Below are positions 9,871 through 37,806 of a stretch of 39,951 nt of DNA, one piece after another. Numbering within the stretch: the first letter of the stretch is position 1; the number at the start of each line of letters is the position of its first letter. The stretch is taken from contig MU271197.1 in assembly GCA_021432655.1 (NCBI GenBank), positions 1-39,951 on the forward strand, given 5' to 3'. The notes under the pieces were generated by a model. That model did not search any database and was not told where the DNA came from. It worked only from the letters and a program-made list of their open reading frames with translations. This DNA is from Atractiella rhizophila (lineage: Eukaryota). The translations under genes were made by a program, and so were the position numbers.

Positions 9871-9910
9871 CAGGACGCTGACTGCAACTTGGCAATAAGA
9901 ATCCACAGAC

Positions 9911-10862
9911 ATGGCATCATCGTCTTATCCTACTCATGCTGTCTCCATGGAGGGTGAAGTGGACGAAGCAATTCGCCATGGGTTTTCAACTGCACAAGCT
10001 GATGTTTCAAAGCTTGATGCCGCCAGCACCATCAAGTTCGACATGATTCGTGCTCATGTGATCCTCAAAAATGGGTATACATCAATTCTGAAGCAAGTCG
10101 ATGAGGATCATTACAAAGATTTGCCCAATTGGATCGGATACGTGGAGGCATGGTGCGTGACTGTCGCCCATCGTGAGTTGTTTGTTGTCCATAAATCAGA
10201 CCAAATTGTCGAAATGGGGGCTCAACCCTCCATCCTAGATCATGACGCTGAGGAGCTGCATTTGTTCCCATACCTAAGCACAAAGATGAATGTTCACGAG
10301 GAGCTCGAGGATCACAAGATTATTCATGACGGCATTGAAGACCTACTGAAGTGGATTGTCGCAGCCAAAAGTGATCGTTCAAAGTATTCTGCTCAGCTAC
10401 TCAAGTCCGTCTTCTTCTTCTCTCTGCTCAATTTCGTCCATCAAACCGCGCTACAGGGAAAAGCTGTCCCGCATGGGACCGACATTCCTTAAGCATTTGG
10501 ACGAAGAAGTGGAGCACTTGTCGTGTGTACTTTGACCTCCATGCTTAGCAGTATCCTCAGTTTACTTCAAAACAGTCACGAAAACTTACTGCAGTTCCCT
10601 GAGGACGAGCTGGGCAGCGCATGGAAAGGGTTCTTGAACTATGCGAAGACACACAGCAACCCTTTCATCGCGCTTCCGTTTATCAAGTCTCACACGCCAC
10701 CTGAATACAAGTGGTGGCCCGCAGGTGTTCCTTGGATCATCAACAAACTTATGGTTCGTGTTAGTTTTTCGAGTAACTTTTCATATTGATAAGAATTAGG
10801 TGCCACTTCTCCCATTAAAACATTCGGGATACTGGAAATATGCACCCTATCCTACTTCTTGA
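9911..10862 (+). CDS. Hemerythrin-like (HHE cation-binding) protein, copy A
   Basis: Five spliced exons give MIRAHVILKNGY, AHHHDAEELHLFP, LEDHKIIH, KHLDEEVEHL and C-terminal GYWKYAPYP. The H/HxxxE spacing is typical of HHE domains. Confidence 0.8.
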
Positions 10863-11348
10863 GCGCCGCTGTTTAGCTCTTGGTTATCATATACTCATCT
10901 TTGCAAGCACAGCTGAGTTAAAGCTGATTTCTTCAATCGGAGAACTAAACTCAAGCCACAATGTGTCTGTATCCCTGTTGAGTTTCCTTGTAGGAAAAGG
11001 CGTATCCCGCTCAATACCAATGACCGCACAACTAACTTACCAAGCGCCAGCCCGGATGACACAGCACGGACACCTCACATCTGCATATATCTACGGAGCA
11101 TAATTCTTCATGATAGCTTTGCGCTTGGAAAGCCCTTTACATTCACAATTGTTCGGCGGTTCGTAGGCTCCGGCATGCCTGAGGAGAACGGGAGAACAAC
11201 AGGTCAACGAGAGCTTGTACCTTTGTCGAGCTTCCGAGCTACAGACAATGGCAAACGACGAAAGAATATGACAGATACCTTTCGAAAACCTGATGGTATG
11301 CTTCCAGGTTCCATATAAAGGCGCGCAGGTCAATCAAATTGCTGAAGA

Positions 11349-12347
11349 ATGTCGCGAACTACTGCTACTCAGCCTCAGGCTGCTCCTGCCCCAATTTTTG
11401 AAGGTGAAGCAGATGAAGCAGTCCGCAATGGCTTTTCAACAAATGAGGCAGAAGCCTTAAAGCTCGATCCTGCTGGCCAGATCAAATTCCACATGATTCG
11501 TGCTCATGTTATGATCAAGAATGGGTACAACTCGATCGTAAAACAGGTCAACGACAACCACTCTAACGATTTAGATAACTGGATTGGGTATTTGTTCTCT
11601 CCTCGCAGATTTGAACAAGTGTTTACTGGCTACTCCTCGTGCTTTAAGCTATGTGCAAACATGGCTTACAATTGTAGCACACCGTAAGTGATTTGACACG
11701 TCTGACATTGATGGACGCACAGTTCACCTCGGGATAGACCACGACGCGGAAGAGAGACACCTTTTTCCATATCTGGCCACGAAATTGGATTTGCAAGAAG
11801 AGCTACAGGATCACAAAGTAATACATGGCGGCATAGATGACATGTTGGAGTGGGTTACAGAAGTGAAGAAAGACCACTCGAAGTACTCTTCTGAGACCTT
11901 GAAGTCGGTTCTTCCTTTTTCTCACGGCCTTGTTTGATCCAGACCAGGGGGAAGCTGTCCCGCATCGGACCAACACTCTTCAAACATCTAACAGAAGAAG
12001 TAGAGCATCTTTCGTTCGTCCTTTGTTGAGTTATTTGAGAGTTTTCTGATCCCAGAAGGCACGAGAATCTGTCCCAATTCCCTCCAGAGGGCTTGGAAGC
12101 GGCTTGGGGCGAGGTAGAAAACTATGCGAAGAAGCATGCGGACCCTTTCATGGGGCTACCTTTTGCCAAATCGCATACACCTCCAGAGTACAAATGGTGG
12201 CCATCCCTGGGTTGGTTCCTGACCAAAGTCCTTGTAAGATTCTCGCCCTCCATTTTGAGATTTGCTGAGAGCACGGCCTGTCAGCCGCCTCTTTTCTCTT
12301 GGAAATATTCAGGATATTGGAAGTACTCACCATATCCGACCCGATGA
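11349..12347 (+). CDS. Hemerythrin-like (HHE cation-binding) protein, copy B (tandem paralog)
   Basis: Six exons give MIRAHVMIKNGY, AHHHDAEERHLFP, LQDHKVIH, KHLTEEVEHL and GYWKYSPYPTR. Colinear with copy A. Confidence 0.8.
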
Positions 12348-12622
12348 TGTGGCTATCTCTATCTGAATGCTCCCATCTGCATATCTCCAGCCACGCGACT
12401 GCAGCCCCATCGCTACTTGAATAACATCTACAAGAATATGACAGACTGTGTATGCTTGGACTTTCTGGTATTGCGGGTCTTTGCTAAGCCAAAAAAACAT
12501 CATGATTACTATAACAGGAGGCAATGCTGGAGTAATACTAAGACCGATGGCTAAGATCGGTGAAAACATGATGAAGGGGGAGGAATTGAAGGCAAATGTT
12601 GCAAATTCGTAGGGCATCAGGT

Positions 12623-27870: not shown

Positions 27871-30800
27871 CTATTCGTCGGGCTTTAAATCACTAGCGAT
27901 TTTGCACCATGTCCTAATGAGCTGTGCCGCAGAAATGAACTCTGTGAGCTCGTTGTACACCTGGGAGAACGATTCGCTTGAGTCAACAAGAAAGAGAAAA
28001 CCGGCAGCAAGATGCTGACCTGTGCAGATATCCTCAGCCACCAGCGGTCACCGTGCACAAAAGCGGGAATGTAGAAGTTGTGATTGAACATCTGTTCCTT
28101 CAAGAAATCGAACTGCTTGGCTCGGAGCTTAGGATCGTCTGAGACAACGAGAGGAAGGGAGACGTTGACCTAATTTTTCTACGTTAGCTTTATGACGTAG
28201 TAGAAGAAGAGAGCACCGTACCATAGACGCTACCAACGTCTTTTCCTCATTTTGCATTACGACACTTCCTTCGCCAAGTATTCTCGCCATCGCCTCCCCA
28301 CCTTCTTTCGCCAGCTTGTTGCACCACTTCATGATCCTCTCCTCTCCACCACAGATCTTCTCTCTGAATTCAAGAGCAGCAGGGATGGACAGAAGCGGTG
28401 ACCAATCCTGTGTGCCCATCCACAAATATTCAGAGATCCATTGACTTTTGTCGAGTGGAGGGATCCTGGTCGGGTGTTCGGGTGAGGAATATCCTTGAGA
28501 GATAGGCATGGAATGTGTGTTCCACTGATGTGATCTCTTGCAATAAAACATCGCCACTCCTCGATGAGCGTAAGCCCATTTGTGCATGTTGGAGACAAAC
28601 CAATCAGGATTGGCATTCTTCATATCGAGAGGGATTTGCCCAATAGCATGCGCTCCATCGATGAGGGAAAGGACGTTATAGCGTTTCAGGAGAGCCACGA
28701 TGCGCTCCCATGGGAGAACGACGCCGGGATTGGATGAAATTGCGTCGATGAGCGCTACCCGCACTTTGCTCTCTGGATTGGTTGTCTCGTACTCTACAAT
28801 AGCCGATTCTATCTTATCAAGCAGCCCTTGGTCCGAGATTGGATAAGTGACTCGAACAGGAAGAGTGCGAAGCTTGAGGTCAGGTTTGGAGTCGAGGATG
28901 TATTCGATGGAGGTTCTGCAAGCATCGTACACGGTCGTCTCGATGTAGAGAATAGCGTCGTTGGGTTGATATTCGACAGATCGAAGAGCTATGTTCACTC
29001 CTGTGGTAGCGTTGGCCACACTGCAACAGCAGGTCAGCGCAAATTACAACGGAAAGGGGAGGATGAACAAAACTAAATCCTCCGTTTCGCAGTTCACCAG
29101 CTTCGAGACGCGTTTTCGGACCTCATTGATGAGACTTATATATTCTCGCTTGATAAATCGATCAGGAAAAGATTCAGCCTGGTCTTGCATCTTCCGGAAA
29201 GCCTCGAGCGTCGGTCGTGGGCATGACCCGTAAGAACCTGCTCAATTATTCAGCGAAGCGCGAAAAGGTCGTCGTCCAATACCATGGTTTAGATTCATCA
29301 CCCCATCCTCCAGTAAGAAATACTTTCGCCCAAACTCCTTCCCAAAAGACTCAAGCATTTCCTTTTGCACCAACGTCGAATCAGACAGAAGTGGCCTAGG
29401 GCTCATTTCCTCAACAAGACCTTGCCCAGCCTGGAAATCTGAAGCGACCCGGCACCATGCTTTGAGCAAATGGGCAACAGAAATGAACATATACAGCTCG
29501 TTGTACACCTGCAAGAAACAGCTCGGTTACAGTGGACACTAAGAATCAATGATTACCTGTGCAGACACCCTCAACCACCATTTATCCCCATGCACAAACA
29601 TGGGAATGTGGAACTTGTGCCGAAACATTTGTTCTACGATGAACGCGCTTTGCTTTGCTCGCACACCAGCATCCGGAGAGACTGCGAGAGGAAGAGACAC
29701 GTTGACCTGTTGATAGTAAATAAGAAAACATTGCTCCATATGCCGACAAGACAAAGGGTAGAGAAGAGTTAAAGACAAACCATCGAGGCGATGAGCGTGC
29801 ATTCTCCATTCTCCATCACCACACTTCCCCCACCAAGGATCTTCACCATTGCCTTCCCTCCTTCATTAGCAAGCTGGTTACACCAGGTCATGATCCGTTC
29901 TTCCCCTCCGCACACCCTCTCCCGAAACTCTAATGCAGCCTCAACGGAAAGTATTGAGCTCCAATCCTGTGTCCCGATCCATTCGTATTCCGATACCCAG
30001 CGACTTTTATCTCCCAGCGGGAGATGCGAAGGATGTTCGGGGGAATTATAGCCATGAGAAATTGGCATCGAATGGGTGTTCCACTGGTGCTCTCGTTTAC
30101 AGTAAAACATCGCAACTCCTCTGTGACGCACACCAGCATCCGGAGAGACTGCGAGAGGGAGAGACACGTTGACCTGTTGATAGTAAATGAGAAAACATTG
30201 CTCCATATGCCGACAAGACAAAGGGTAGAGAAGAGTTGAAGACGAACCATCGAGGCGATGAGCGTGCCTTCTCCATTCTCCATCACCACACTTCCGCCAC
30301 CAAGGATCTTCACCATTGCTTTCCCTCCTTCATTAGCAAGCTGGTTGCACCAGGTCATGATCCGTTCTTCCCCCCCGCACACATTTTCTCTAAATTCTAA
30401 AGCAGCCTCAACGGAAAGTATTGAGCTCCAATCCTGTGTCCCCATCCATTCGTATTCCGACACCCAACGACTCTTATCTCCCAGCGGGAGATGCGAAGGA
30501 TGTTCGGGGGAATTATAGCCATGAGAAATTGGCATCGAATGGGTGTTCCACTGGCGCTCTCGTTTACAGTAAAACATCGCAACTCCTCTGTGGGCGAAAG
30601 CCCACTTGTGCAAATTTGAAACAAACCAATCCGGATCTGCTCTTTTCATGTCCAAAGAGATTTGCCCAATCGCGTGTGCGCCGTCGACGATGGAGAAGAC
30701 GTCATGGTTCCTCAGAAGGGCCACAATGCGCTCCCAAGGAACAACAACCCCTGGGTTTGAGGAGATAGCGTCCAAGAGCATCACTCGCACCTTGCTCTCC

Positions 30801-31933
30801 GGATTTGTGGACTCGTATCCCACAATCGCATCTTCGATTTTCTTGAGAAGGTCCTTGTCTGAAATTGGATAAGTTACAGGGACAGGAACGGTTCGGAGTT
30901 TGAGCGATGGCTTCGAGTCGAGAATGTATAGGATAGAGTTCTCGCATGATCCATAGACTGTGGTGTCGATGTAGAGAATTGCGTCGTTCAATTTGTACTC
31001 GACCGAACGGAGAGCAATGTTCACCCCGGTCGTAGCGTTGGGTACACTTTCTCACAAATATCAGAATAATGGACCTTCTAGGGGGAAACAAACAAGACTA
31101 AGTCTTCTGTGTCACAGTTCACCAACTTTGAGACTCGGGCTCGTGCCTTGTCGAGAAGTGGGACATATTGCCTCCTCATGAATCGATCAGGGAACGACTC
31201 TGCTTGTTCCTGAAATTTGCGAAAGACTTCCATTGTAGGTTTGGGGCAACATCCATAAGAACCTGGCGGTCTCTCAGGTTTAACTTCAGTAATAGCGGAG
31301 AAGGACTTGCCATGGTTCAGATTTGTCCACCCGTCTTCCATCAAGAAATATTTCTCTCCAAACTCCTTACCAAAAGGTTCAAGCTCTTTCTTAGAGTTTT
31401 CGGCATAGGAAAGTGCCTGTCTCATCCACCGAGCGCGATGGACGTCGACTTCTCGATATTCTTCCTCTCCACCGGGGCCGACCCACTGGGTGAGCTTCTC
31501 CCTGACAAAGTCATCGTAGTTCCACTCTGCATTTTCAAGGTGACTCCTTGGGGAAATCCAGATATAGATCTGTGCGACAAGCGATTCCTCTGTGTCTGTG
31601 AGTTCGACGGTAACAACCTGCCGCTCGTATTCGGAGCCTTCGAAGATATCCAGATATTCCACTTCGCGAGCATCGAGCCCTTCGACAACGACACCAAGGA
31701 CAGACGATTCCTTCTCAGTGCCGGGGATGACAGCGGGATAATCGCAGCCGTACACCTTTGCGGCCGCATCAAAACATTTTATTATTACAAGTCGGAGCAC
31801 ATACCTTATGCCGCGTGTATCCCTTGAGAATTGCTTGCTTGGATGGCCGCGATTCTTTGCTTTTGAGCACCCGATTAAGGATGCGAGTGTTCATCAGCGT
31901 TCCGTAAAAGAAAAAGGCGGAAGTGGCCGTCAT
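27871..31933 (-). CDS. Tri-domain fusion: AIG2/GGACT gamma-glutamylcyclotransferase + two Egt2-like PLP-dependent cysteine-sulfoxide C-S lyase (aminotransferase class V) domains
   Basis: Exons 31933-31805, 31755-31311, 31262-31094, 31046-30248, 30173-29781, 29706-29557, 29508-29283, 29237-29069, 29020-28222, 28169-28020 and 27960-27871 total 3519 nt in one frame. GGCT motifs are FFYGTL, DYPAV and LDIFEGSEYER. Each lyase has NLNHGSYG, NATTGVN, DGAHAIGQ, SN(L/M)HKW, GTQDWS and R(V/I)SAQVYNE. Confidence 0.85.
29660..30592. repeat. Near-identical 466-bp tandem duplication (period 467) inside lyase domain 1
   Basis: 29660-30125 matches 30127-30592 with scattered substitutions. One extra base at 30126. 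Confidence 0.95.
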
Positions 31934-37280: not shown

Positions 37281-37806
37281 ATGTCCTGCAACAGAATTCG
37301 TGAAGGTGCGACTCTATCTCCTCCCGCTAGCCTGTTCTCATGAAAGTGCAGACCTTGGAAACTGTCTCTTACGCTCAAATTGTGTGCTTCGCGACGGAAA
37401 CACACCTCAAGACTGCATACGAAACCACATGGACGAGCTGCCAGAGGAGTGCAAACTCTTACGGCAGGCCTTGTACGATTGCAAAAGAGGAATGGTACGT
37501 AGCAACTTCAACAAAACCACATGGACGAGCTGCCAGAGGAGTGCAAACTCTTACGGCAGGCCTTGTACGATTGCAAAAGAGGAATGGTACGTAGCAACTT
37601 CAACTTGTACTTTTGTCGCACTGAGCCTCCACCAGCTCGACATGCGAAAACGTTTCCGAGGTTCGTCCGATCCACTCATTTGTTTTTTGAAGTCATGCTC
37701 AAATAAAGGAACAGGGAACGATCCTGGTCAATATAAGCAGGATATAGAGAAACAGATTCAGAGGAATACGATTGAACAGCCGTCCAGCGCTGCTCCGACA
37801 GGTTGA
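37281..37806 (+). CDS. PET191: Cytochrome c oxidase assembly factor Pet191/COA5 (twin CX9C)
   Basis: MSCNRIREDLGNCLLRSNCV...TPQDCI...LPEECKLLRQALYDCKRGMLDMRKRFRGN, from exons 37281-37305, 37352-37494, 37636-37660 and 37715-37806. Confidence 0.93.
37422..37604. repeat. Perfect 91-bp tandem duplication (period 92) in PET191
   Basis: 37422-37512 is identical to 37514-37604, separated by one A at 37513. Confidence 0.95.

What the first reader, a model, noticed from the sequence alone, without database searches (positions are those of the whole stretch)
29238..29556. Lyase 1 reads through in frame into lyase 2: covalent pseudo-dimer of a fold-type I PLP enzyme
Seen: exon 29508-29283 encodes the C-terminal helix of lyase 1 (VYNELYMFISVAHLLKAWCRVASDF), a roughly 25-aa linker (QAGQGLVEEMSPRPLLSDSTLVQKE) and the N-terminus of lyase 2 (FGKEFGRKYF…NLNH). 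The equivalent position in lyase 2 ends …ASDLKPDE-TAG. Both domains share intron positions and exon sizes (169, 799 and 150 nt), are clearly diverged in sequence, and keep the PLP lysine (SNLHKW, SNMHKW). Known: class V aminotransferases work as dimers with active sites built from both subunits. Inference: an old intragenic duplication created a tethered heterodimer with two potentially specialised active sites. Met at 29406 could also start a stand-alone lyase.
Basis: partly seen in the sequence, partly recalled or inferred. Interest (0 to 1): 0.8.

Follow-up and report, generated by a model that had tools for sequence, protein, structure and literature searches.

The report
Three-part fungal sulfur-cleaving enzyme gene
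One spliced gene of the root fungus Atractiella joins a glutamate-clipping domain to two working copies of a vitamin-B6 sulfur-cleaving enzyme; the doubling has known precedents, but the clipping domain is shared with many basidiomycete fungi and hints at an unrecognised step in how they make or recycle the antioxidant ergothioneine.

Summary
The read-through is real. The minus-strand gene (31933-27871) encodes GGACT (AIG2-like gamma-glutamyl cyclotransferase) + Egt2-like lyase 1 + 27-aa linker + lyase 2, 1041 aa. Spliced contigs from two public runs cross the linker exon. Met29406 is ATC in two of three DNA haplotypes, so it is no conserved start; one DNA haplotype has a +1 insertion at 29343 that would kill lyase 2. 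Both lyases keep the Egt2 catalytic set, and the model packs them like the single-chain glycine decarboxylase P-protein. A tethered fold-type I dimer is therefore not new in kind, and tandem Egt2-like lyases recur in a scallop and in Diplonema. Site specialisation is unshown. Best reading: it strips gamma-glutamate from S-substituted gamma-glutamyl-cysteine, then cleaves the C-S bond. Untested biochemically.

The parts
31805..31933 (-). Exon 1, start codon at 31933; first part of GGACT/AIG2-like domain (FFYGTL motif)
   Evidence: intron 31804-31756 skipped in X3, X4, X11 contigs
31311..31755 (-). Exon 2: rest of GGACT domain (Pfam PF06094, aa 7-121; Glu82 codon 31641-31639), connecting helix, start of lyase 1 (aa 169); followed by a GC-AG intron
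   Evidence: X3 record 19 (915 nt) joins exons 1-4
31094..31262 (-). Exon 3 (169 nt), lyase 1
   Evidence: joints in X3
30248..31046 (-). Exon 4 (799 nt), lyase 1 large domain; PLP Lys395 codon 30607-30605
29661..30592 (-). 467-nt-period tandem repeat (30592-30128 / 30125-29661, 95.5% identical); creates an apparent in-frame extra exon 30173-29781 of 131 codons; probably two haplotypes stitched in tandem by the assembly
29557..29706 (-). Exon (150 nt), lyase 1 small domain
   Evidence: joints in X3 and X4
29283..29508 (-). Fusion exon (226 nt): C-terminal helix of lyase 1, linker, N-terminus of lyase 2
   Evidence: X4 record 23 and X3 record 17
29353..29433 (-). Linker, aa 590-616; predicted disordered; polymorphic between haplotypes, no stop among the listed differences; Met codon 29406-29404 is ATC in other haplotypes
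29343..29347 (+). Run of 4 A; one X1 DNA contig (depth 126.8 of three about equal haplotypes) has an extra A: frameshift at the start of lyase 2, stop after about 41 codons; not in X3 or X4 contigs
   Evidence: table 4
29069..29237 (-). Exon (169 nt), lyase 2
   Evidence: joints in X3 and X4
28222..29020 (-). Exon (799 nt), lyase 2 large domain; PLP Lys843 codon 28581-28579
28020..28169 (-). Exon (150 nt), lyase 2 small domain
   Evidence: joints in X3, X4, X11
27871..27960 (-). Last exon, ends ASDLKPDE-TAG
   Evidence: joint in X3 and X4

Best explanation
One expressed gene encodes a three-domain enzyme: GGACT - Egt2-like C-S lyase 1 - linker - lyase 2. Shown: the gene structure, the read-through in spliced RNA contigs, intact catalytic residues, and lineage-specific origin of lyase 2. 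Inferred: the ancestral basidiomycete protein is GGACT + one lyase; in Atractiella the lyase part was duplicated in frame, and the two halves pair within one chain (one GGACT, two PLP sites, each completed by the other half). Inferred mechanism: a gamma-glutamyl-cysteine S-adduct, most likely gamma-glutamyl-hercynylcysteine sulfoxide made by Egt1, cannot form the PLP aldimine because its alpha-amino group is acylated; GGACT removes the glutamyl group as 5-oxoproline using Glu82, and the lyase then beta-eliminates to give the thiol (ergothioneine after reduction), pyruvate and ammonia. This would be a one-protein analogue of bacterial EgtC + EgtE, acting either as a salvage of mis-made intermediate or as a main route. 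The doubling itself need not bring a new function.
For: Read-through: X4 record 23 (575 nt, no gaps) runs 29704-29555 | 29506-29281 | 29235-29081, X3 record 17 crosses 29506-29314 with the upstream joints, X3 record 19 joins GGACT to lyase 1; the DNA run X1 shows none of these intron joints. Lyase 1 has no stop of its own before lyase 2 unless intron 29282-29238 is kept. Closest solved structure is Neurospora Egt2 (E 1.8e-80; Z 44.7-45.6, rmsd 1.7-2.0 A over 406-410 residues, tied with LolT). NcEgt2 Lys247, Tyr134, Asp221, His246, Asn244, Thr307, Ser196, Arg438 (residue list from PMC10805701 passages) have counterparts in both halves. GGACT+lyase in 25 of 25 hits of 572-1822 aa, plus Mixia, Wallemia and Auriculariales; Glu82 invariant in 19 of 19 aligned. 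The Rhodotorula member P0025 is EMS19535.1, two accessions from EMS19537.1 = RHTO_04311, so by numbering RHTO_04309, called RtEGT2 in PMC11089744. The genome has Egt1. NcEgt1 accepts gamma-glutamylcysteine, 62-fold less well than Cys (PMC13547098 passage). A cyclotransferase step before thiol release is known from gliotoxin GliK (PMC6923255 passages). Model pTM 0.65 exceeds the 0.57 that GGACT + lyase 1 alone could give (my arithmetic), and it matches full-length P-protein at TM 0.50-0.53 against 0.37-0.38 for one Egt2 chain.
Against: No activity was measured for either domain. Reviews state that fungal Egt1 uses Cys and that fungi need no deglutamylation step (PMC6923255, PMC11993508 passages); ascomycete Egt2 proteins work without GGACT. 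Egt2-family membership does not fix the substrate: LolT, a Mannich cyclase, scores as high. NcEgt2 Cys156 is absent and Gln224 is His in both halves; His276 is Gln in lyase 2. The nearest GGACT structures are plant AIG2-like proteins, and the catalytic role of Glu82 is recalled from the family, not shown by a call. Contigs are graph paths and do not prove one full-length transcript. One DNA haplotype would truncate lyase 2, so the second copy may be dispensable. The P-protein match has rmsd about 13 A, so the dimer geometry is approximate, and an intermolecular pairing (lyase 1 with lyase 1) is not excluded.
Confidence: 0.5

Rival explanations
1. Same gene and fold, but the pair serves general gamma-glutamyl/glutathione-conjugate turnover (gamma-Glu-Cys or its S-conjugates to 5-oxoproline, then cysteine desulfhydrase or conjugate beta-lyase activity giving H2S or thiols), not ergothioneine.
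For: The Egt2-like family holds other chemistries (LolT; a Diplonema member annotated as L-cysteine desulfhydrase); lyase 2 lacks the His276 counterpart that binds the histidine part in NcEgt2; this is the only PF06094 match found in the genome, so it may be the cell's general GGACT.
Against: Closest characterised relative is Egt2; lyase 1 keeps Arg75, His276 and an aromatic Phe304 counterpart; Egt1 is present; the Rhodotorula member is used as RtEGT2.
Confidence: 0.22
2. The lyases are ordinary Egt2 enzymes acting on hercynylcysteine sulfoxide made from Cys; the GGACT domain is a passenger with an unrelated substrate (for example gamma-glutamyl amines), kept in fusion without channelling.
For: Textbook fungal route needs no deglutamylation; stand-alone lyases without GGACT sit beside fused ones in Meredithblackwellia and Rhodosporidiobolus.
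Against: The fusion is kept from Pucciniomycotina to Tremellomycetes, Wallemia and Rhizoctonia, with Glu82 invariant, and the two chemistries fit in sequence.
Confidence: 0.2
3. Lyase 2 is mostly made from its own transcript starting inside the linker (Met29358), the fused form being minor; two tandem genes merged by loss of a stop.
For: An ATG at 29358 sits just before the lyase 2 homology starts, with G at -3; one haplotype inactivates lyase 2 without touching lyase 1.
Against: No intergenic DNA exists; Met29406 is not conserved; spliced contigs cross the linker in two runs. This rival can coexist with the fused product.
Confidence: 0.06
4. The fusion is an assembly artefact.
For: The assembly stitches haplotypes nearby (467-nt repeat; Egt1 three times at 98%); the NCBI protein P0004 comes from a contig of the same length, 180225, so it is not independent.
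Against: Three DNA contigs with different letters and two spliced runs all run through the linker; the halves are 73% identical with saturated dS, far beyond allelic distance.
Confidence: 0.02

Closest known systems
Neurospora crassa Egt2, hercynylcysteine sulfoxide lyase (PDB 5UTS, 5V12, 5V1X)
   Same: Fold (Z about 45, rmsd about 2 A), 34-37% identity, PLP lysine and catalytic/PLP-binding residues in both halves.
   Different: Single lyase domain, non-covalent dimer, no GGACT; Cys156 and Gln224 not kept here; Arg75 is Lys and His276 is Gln in lyase 2.
Glycine decarboxylase P-protein (PDB 4LHD, 6I34, 9UZ6)
   Same: Two fold-type I units in one chain; full-length match to the model, TM 0.50-0.53 over 949-990 columns; described as a single polypeptide equal to an alpha-beta heterodimer (PMC7259800 passages).
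   Different: Ancient duplication, only the C-terminal half has the PLP lysine; 11% identity; other chemistry. Here both halves keep the lysine and are 73% identical.
Coccolithovirus single-chain serine palmitoyltransferase
   Same: Natural fusion of the two subunits LCB1 and LCB2 into one gene (PMC5371807 passage); that SPT is fold-type I is my own knowledge.
   Different: Fusion of two long-diverged subunits, not a recent duplication; different reaction.
Tandem Egt2/LCD-like lyases of Argopecten irradians (XP_069131369.1, 806 aa) and Diplonema papillatum (KAJ9437477.1, 1071 aa)
   Same: Two full lyase domains in one chain; the scallop model also matches full-length P-protein (TM 0.62-0.65 against 0.45).
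   Different: No GGACT; each pair groups within its own lineage, so independent origins; uncharacterised.
Basidiomycete GGACT-lyase proteins (Rhodotorula toruloides EMS19535.1, by numbering RtEGT2; Cryptococcus neoformans CNAG_06036; Mixia, Wallemia, Rhizoctonia)
   Same: GGACT + Egt2-like lyase in the same order, 32-44% identity over aa 1-600.
   Different: One lyase domain only; no function reported for the GGACT part in the papers found.
Mycobacterial EgtC + EgtE, and gliotoxin GliK before thiol release
   Same: Logic: remove gamma-glutamyl, then cleave C-S with a PLP enzyme.
   Different: Separate proteins; EgtC is a glutamine amidotransferase-type hydrolase, not a cyclotransferase.

Membership tests
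Egt2-like class V PLP lyase | Fold-type I, Pfam Aminotran_5, closest structure Egt2 | tested here: met
   Two PF00266 stretches; Egt2 best by sequence and tied best by fold with LolT
Egt2-like class V PLP lyase | PLP-binding and catalytic residues (Nc Lys247, Tyr134, Asp221, His246, Asn244, Thr307, Ser196, Arg438) | tested here: met
   K395/K843, Y279/Y727, D369/D817, H394/H842, N392/N840, T451/T899, S344/S792, R560/R1008
Hercynylcysteine sulfoxide lyase (Egt2 proper) | Hercynine-pocket residues (Nc Phe48, Arg75, His276, Phe304) and Cys156, Gln224 | tested here: inconclusive
   Lyase 1: Tyr, Arg221, His423, Trp; lyase 2: Tyr, Lys669, Gln871, Trp; Cys156 absent and Gln224 is His in both
Hercynylcysteine sulfoxide lyase (Egt2 proper) | Cleaves hercynylcysteine sulfoxide; Egt1 partner in the organism | not testable with these tools
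   Activity untested; Egt1-like genes are present
GGACT / AIG2-like cyclotransferase | PF06094 above cut-off, YGTL motif | tested here: met
   67.4 bits against cut-off 22.8, aa 7-121; closest solved chains 2G0Q and 2JQV
GGACT / AIG2-like cyclotransferase | Conserved catalytic glutamate in the LDxxEG motif | tested here: met
   Glu82 invariant in 19 of 19 and aligned to Glu in 2G0Q and 2JQV; that it is catalytic is recalled, not from a call
GGACT / AIG2-like cyclotransferase | Releases 5-oxoproline from a gamma-glutamyl substrate | not testable with these tools
   needs an assay
Single-chain fold-type I pseudo-dimer | Two fold-type I units in one translated chain | tested here: met
Single-chain fold-type I pseudo-dimer | The two units pair within the chain | tested here: inconclusive
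   Predicted only: pTM 0.65, linker pLDDT under 50; TM 0.50-0.53 to P-protein, rmsd 12-14 A
Glycine decarboxylase P-protein | Only the C-terminal half carries the PLP lysine; P-protein sequence family | tested here: not met
   Both halves have the lysine; 11% identity. It resembles P-protein in architecture only

The most novel reading that the evidence does not exclude
Many basidiomycetes (Rhodotorula, Sporobolomyces, Cryptococcus, Wallemia, Atractiella) make ergothioneine at least partly through a gamma-glutamylcysteine route, using a cyclotransferase fused to Egt2 in place of bacterial EgtC, which contradicts the two-enzyme, cysteine-only fungal pathway; Atractiella has further doubled the lyase into a one-chain dimer whose two sites differ in the hercynine pocket.
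Probability: 0.3. Interest if true: 0.75.

Novelty: new variant of a known kind. Interest (0 to 1): 0.55.

Why it matters
The doubling is a clean natural case of a young single-chain fold-type I dimer with two intact sites, a stage before the one-site P-protein, and it lets each site be mutated alone; its recurrence in a fungus, a scallop and a diplonemid suggests that this family tolerates tethering. More important is the GGACT-Egt2 fusion: it sits in the gene apparently overexpressed as RtEGT2 in an industrial ergothioneine yeast, yet the paper's main text never mentions a domain. If it deglutamylates the Egt1 product, it rewrites the fungal pathway for a large part of Basidiomycota, ties ergothioneine to glutathione precursors, and offers a one-protein EgtC+EgtE part for engineering. 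One mutant (the GGACT glutamate) tests it.

Tried and rejected
Extra 131-codon exon (30173-29781) as a real cassette exon: open and in frame but rejected as probable artefact: the depth in bins 29935-30083 and 30084-30232 of DNA run X1 is fully explained by a paralogue contig and one other contig, so no laid contig crosses the repeat junction; X3 has no cover there; holes in contigs prove nothing alone, but X1 record 6 and X3 record 18 join the unique upstream part to copy-2 letters, the NCBI model does the same, and no GT/GC-AG intron of 467 nt gives that model (0 of 39 possible cuts). RNA contig depth (X3 about 258 on lyase 2 against 67-82 on lyase 1) cannot rank parts of a gene and was not used. 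Search for Egt1 in Cryptococcus or other Tremellomycetes: 7 hits, none from them, weak search, no conclusion; a metabolomics paper mentions ergothioneine in C. neoformans (PMC12515567 passage). Full-length P-protein is not among the 50 rows of the two VIA-align lists (only the alpha chain 1WYT_A), which favour single domains. NCBIfam gave no family over its cut-off. No complex prediction was run: a pass would follow from likeness to 5UTS and could not tell intra- from intermolecular pairing. Literature: no paper held ergothioneine+Egt2+gamma-glutamylcyclotransferase or AIG2+aminotransferase class V+Cryptococcus; locus-tag search gave 2 papers, neither on function; one search listed 15 of 25 papers, none on such a fusion by title or abstract; two searches were uninformative; PMC10858013 had none of my six terms; a recalled AIG2 paper is not held; the RtEGT2 supplement could not be read and would settle its identity. 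Earlier-finding look-ups by sequence and words were empty. The tree is the quick one (SH-aLRT only), without test_one_clade; deep branches were not interpreted.
Full report
Observation. On the minus strand an 11-segment frame runs from ATG 31933 to TAG 27871 without a stop: 1172 aa if every GT/GC-AG intron is removed, 1041 aa if the segment 30173-29781 is skipped. Both halves have exons of 169, 799 and 150 nt, are 73% identical (312 of 425 columns), with dN 0.19 and saturated dS.

First, the frame starts 168 codons before lyase 1 with a gamma-glutamyl cyclotransferase, AIG2-like domain (PF06094, 67.4 bits, aa 7-121). Second, lyase 1 contains a tandem repeat with a period of 467 nt at 95.5% identity; over 115 codons the copies differ by 12 synonymous and 5 non-synonymous changes, which is how alleles differ.

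Organism and independence. The best database hit is KAH8929276.1 of Atractiella rhizophila, 1041 aa, with the same three domains. It differs from my model at 4 of 1041 positions, all four being the copy-2 residues of the repeat. Its contig has the length of the window's contig, 180225, so it is an annotation of this assembly and no independent support. None of the 39 cuts of 467 nt that give this protein has GT/GC-AG ends, which suggests that the model followed a transcript without the repeat (inference).

Reads. Of 24 listed runs I laid four, all as contigs. X3 and X4 are labelled '?' and 'RNA?', but their contigs skip the predicted introns while the DNA run X1 skips none, so they behave as RNA. 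All nine introns of the 1041-aa model are seen in X3 (the one at 29068-29021 with a few replaced letters beside it). X4 record 23 (575 nt, depth 4, no gaps) runs from lyase 1 exon 29704-29555 through the whole fusion exon into lyase 2 exon 29235-29081; X3 record 17 crosses the linker with the upstream joints; X3 record 19 joins the GGACT exons to lyase 1. A contig is a graph path and not a molecule, but lyase 1 has no stop before lyase 2 unless intron 29282-29238 is retained, so a translatable lyase 1 message has to include the linker. X1 shows three linker types at about equal depth (126, 128.8, 126.8). The 13 listed differences in the fusion exon touch 11 codons: eight change the residue, three are silent, none makes a stop; 80 further differences over the whole stretch were not shown, so 1 of 14 letters in X3 record 17 and 5 of 16 in the X4 piece are unseen. 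Against a vital role of lyase 2: one X1 contig has an extra A behind 29343, a frameshift that stops after about 41 codons; X3 and X4 do not show it. It rests on one contig in a 4-base run.

The internal repeat. Summed depth of the two copies where both are covered (208 + 126 = 334) equals that of single-copy flanks (297-332), no laid contig crosses the junction, and DNA and RNA contigs join the unique upstream part straight to copy-2 letters. The assembly does this elsewhere: the Egt1 locus appears three times at about 98% identity, twice in tandem on one contig, and other short 96-99% tandem repeats occur. I rate it about 80% an artefact. If real, splicing from the first donor to the second acceptor would still give a normal lyase.

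Catalytic anatomy. The nearest solved enzyme is Neurospora Egt2 (fold, tied with LolT). With the residue list of PMC10805701 (passages), both halves keep the counterparts of Lys247, Tyr134, Asp221, His246, Asn244, Thr307, Ser196 and Arg438. Both lack Cys156 and have His for Gln224. They differ at two pocket positions: Arg75 (Arg221 / Lys669) and His276 (His423 / Gln871). Both lie on elements that this paper places at the dimer interface, so in an intramolecular pair the two sites would be unequal; Lys at the first position also occurs in 3 of the 18 aligned single-lyase relatives, so this is a hint and no more.

Geometry. AlphaFold2 on the 1041-aa chain (19-row alignment covering GGACT and lyase 1 only) gave mean pLDDT 76.7, pTM 0.65, with 593-617 below 50. 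GGACT plus lyase 1 make up 0.57 of the chain, so 0.65 needs lyase 2 placed against them (my inference). Foldseek matches the model to whole glycine decarboxylase P-proteins at TM 0.50-0.53 over 949-990 columns, rmsd 12-14 A, against 0.37-0.38 for one Egt2 chain. P-protein is the known single-chain fold-type I pseudo-dimer, with a lysine in its second half only (PMC7259800 passages); the viral single-chain SPT is another fusion (PMC5371807 passage). So the linker permits intramolecular pairing in a model, and the kind of architecture is known.

Distribution. With aa 1-600 as query among proteins of 572-1822 aa, 25 of 25 hits carry PF06094 and PF00266 (7997 candidates scored, and the query favours such hits): Microbotryomycetes, Tremellomycetes and Rhizoctonia; the representative search adds Mixia, Wallemia and Auriculariales. 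Glu82 is invariant in 19 of 19 aligned proteins. Among the best 150 of 9156 representatives, 12 have GGACT and 3 have two lyase domains: this protein, a scallop protein (806 aa, with four unnamed members of about the same length on 2.6-3.2 kb contigs) and a Diplonema protein. In a quick tree of 32 rows, Atractiella lyase 1, lyase 2 and a third paralogue fragment (G000:C172) form a clade (SH-aLRT 100), and the scallop and Diplonema halves each pair with their own partner (99; long branches). The doubling is thus lineage-specific and convergent; the GGACT fusion is old. The scallop model also matches whole P-protein (TM 0.62-0.65 against 0.45).

Mechanism. A gamma-glutamylated cysteine adduct has no free alpha-amine for PLP (established chemistry). 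Mycobacteria solve this with EgtC before EgtE, and gliotoxin synthesis uses the cyclotransferase GliK (passages of PMC10805701 and PMC6923255). A cyclotransferase fused in front of an Egt2-like lyase fits the same order. Fungal Egt1 prefers Cys, but the Neurospora enzyme accepts gamma-Glu-Cys 62-fold less well (PMC13547098 passage), so the intermediate can arise. Atractiella has Egt1. The Rhodotorula toruloides fusion protein EMS19535.1 is, by accession order, RHTO_04309, named RtEGT2 and overexpressed in PMC11089744, whose main text has no occurrence of 'domain'; the supplement, which could confirm the identity, was unreadable. Reviews say that fungi use Cys and lack EgtC, which speaks against a main route and is what makes the fusion worth testing. 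I give the ergothioneine-linked deglutamylation reading 0.5, general gamma-glutamyl conjugate turnover 0.22, an unrelated passenger domain 0.2, separate lyase 2 expression as the main form 0.06 and artefact 0.02. Confidence in the read-through itself is about 0.9.

Papers seen: passages found by term search in PMC11089744, PMC12363409, PMC10805701, PMC6923255, PMC5371807, PMC7259800, PMC11993508, PMC12515567 and PMC13547098; a term search without hits in PMC10858013; search listings only for the rest. I found no description of the GGACT-Egt2 fusion in the searches; the library lacks most subscription papers, and the two domains are visible in automatic annotation.

Verdict. Real, expressed, three-domain gene. 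The tethered dimer is a new member of a known architecture with convergent parallels; the overlooked, widely conserved cyclotransferase fusion is the part that could change a pathway. New variant of a known kind, interest 0.55.

Noticed in passing
window 33160-32399 (-): Pyridoxamine 5'-phosphate oxidase (PLP salvage) gene ends 465 nt upstream of the GGACT-lyase start on the same strand. The Rhodotorula neighbour by accession order is an aldehyde dehydrogenase, so probably not conserved.
   Followed up: partly
G000:C31:124400-127800 and G000:C138:78000-94945 (L013, L014, L006, L010): Egt1-like gene present three times at about 98% DNA identity, twice in tandem on one contig; fits three haplotypes, as do the three linker types in run X1.
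   Followed up: partly
G000:C172:1-812 (L004): Third Egt2-like paralogue, cut by the contig start, about 68% identical to either lyase, ending ...IAADFQVELDESDS-stop; whether it has a GGACT domain is unknown.
   Followed up: partly
window 37419-37604: 94-nt tandem repeat at 98.9% identity inside a Pet191-like gene; possibly another assembly stitch.
   Followed up: no
window 9899-10800 and 11346-12400 (+): Two tandem paralogous genes, 66-70% identical at DNA level; the pieces tested had no Pfam match.
   Followed up: no
window 31310-31263 (-): GC-AG intron in lyase 1, where the matching lyase 2 intron (29282-29238) is GT-AG; skipped in X3.
   Followed up: yes
P0046 (Argopecten irradians XP_069131369.1): Scallop protein with two Egt2/LCD-like lyase domains joined by about 12 residues; second half keeps the lysine but has NNAARG for NHGSYG and Asn for the His of DGAH; a candidate for real site divergence.
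   Followed up: partly
P0040, P0043, P0071: Rhizoctonia models and one unnamed representative carry GGACT-lyase at the end of 1400-1600-aa proteins; the two Rhizoctonia ones list PF00533 and PF12738 as well; possibly merged gene models.
   Followed up: no
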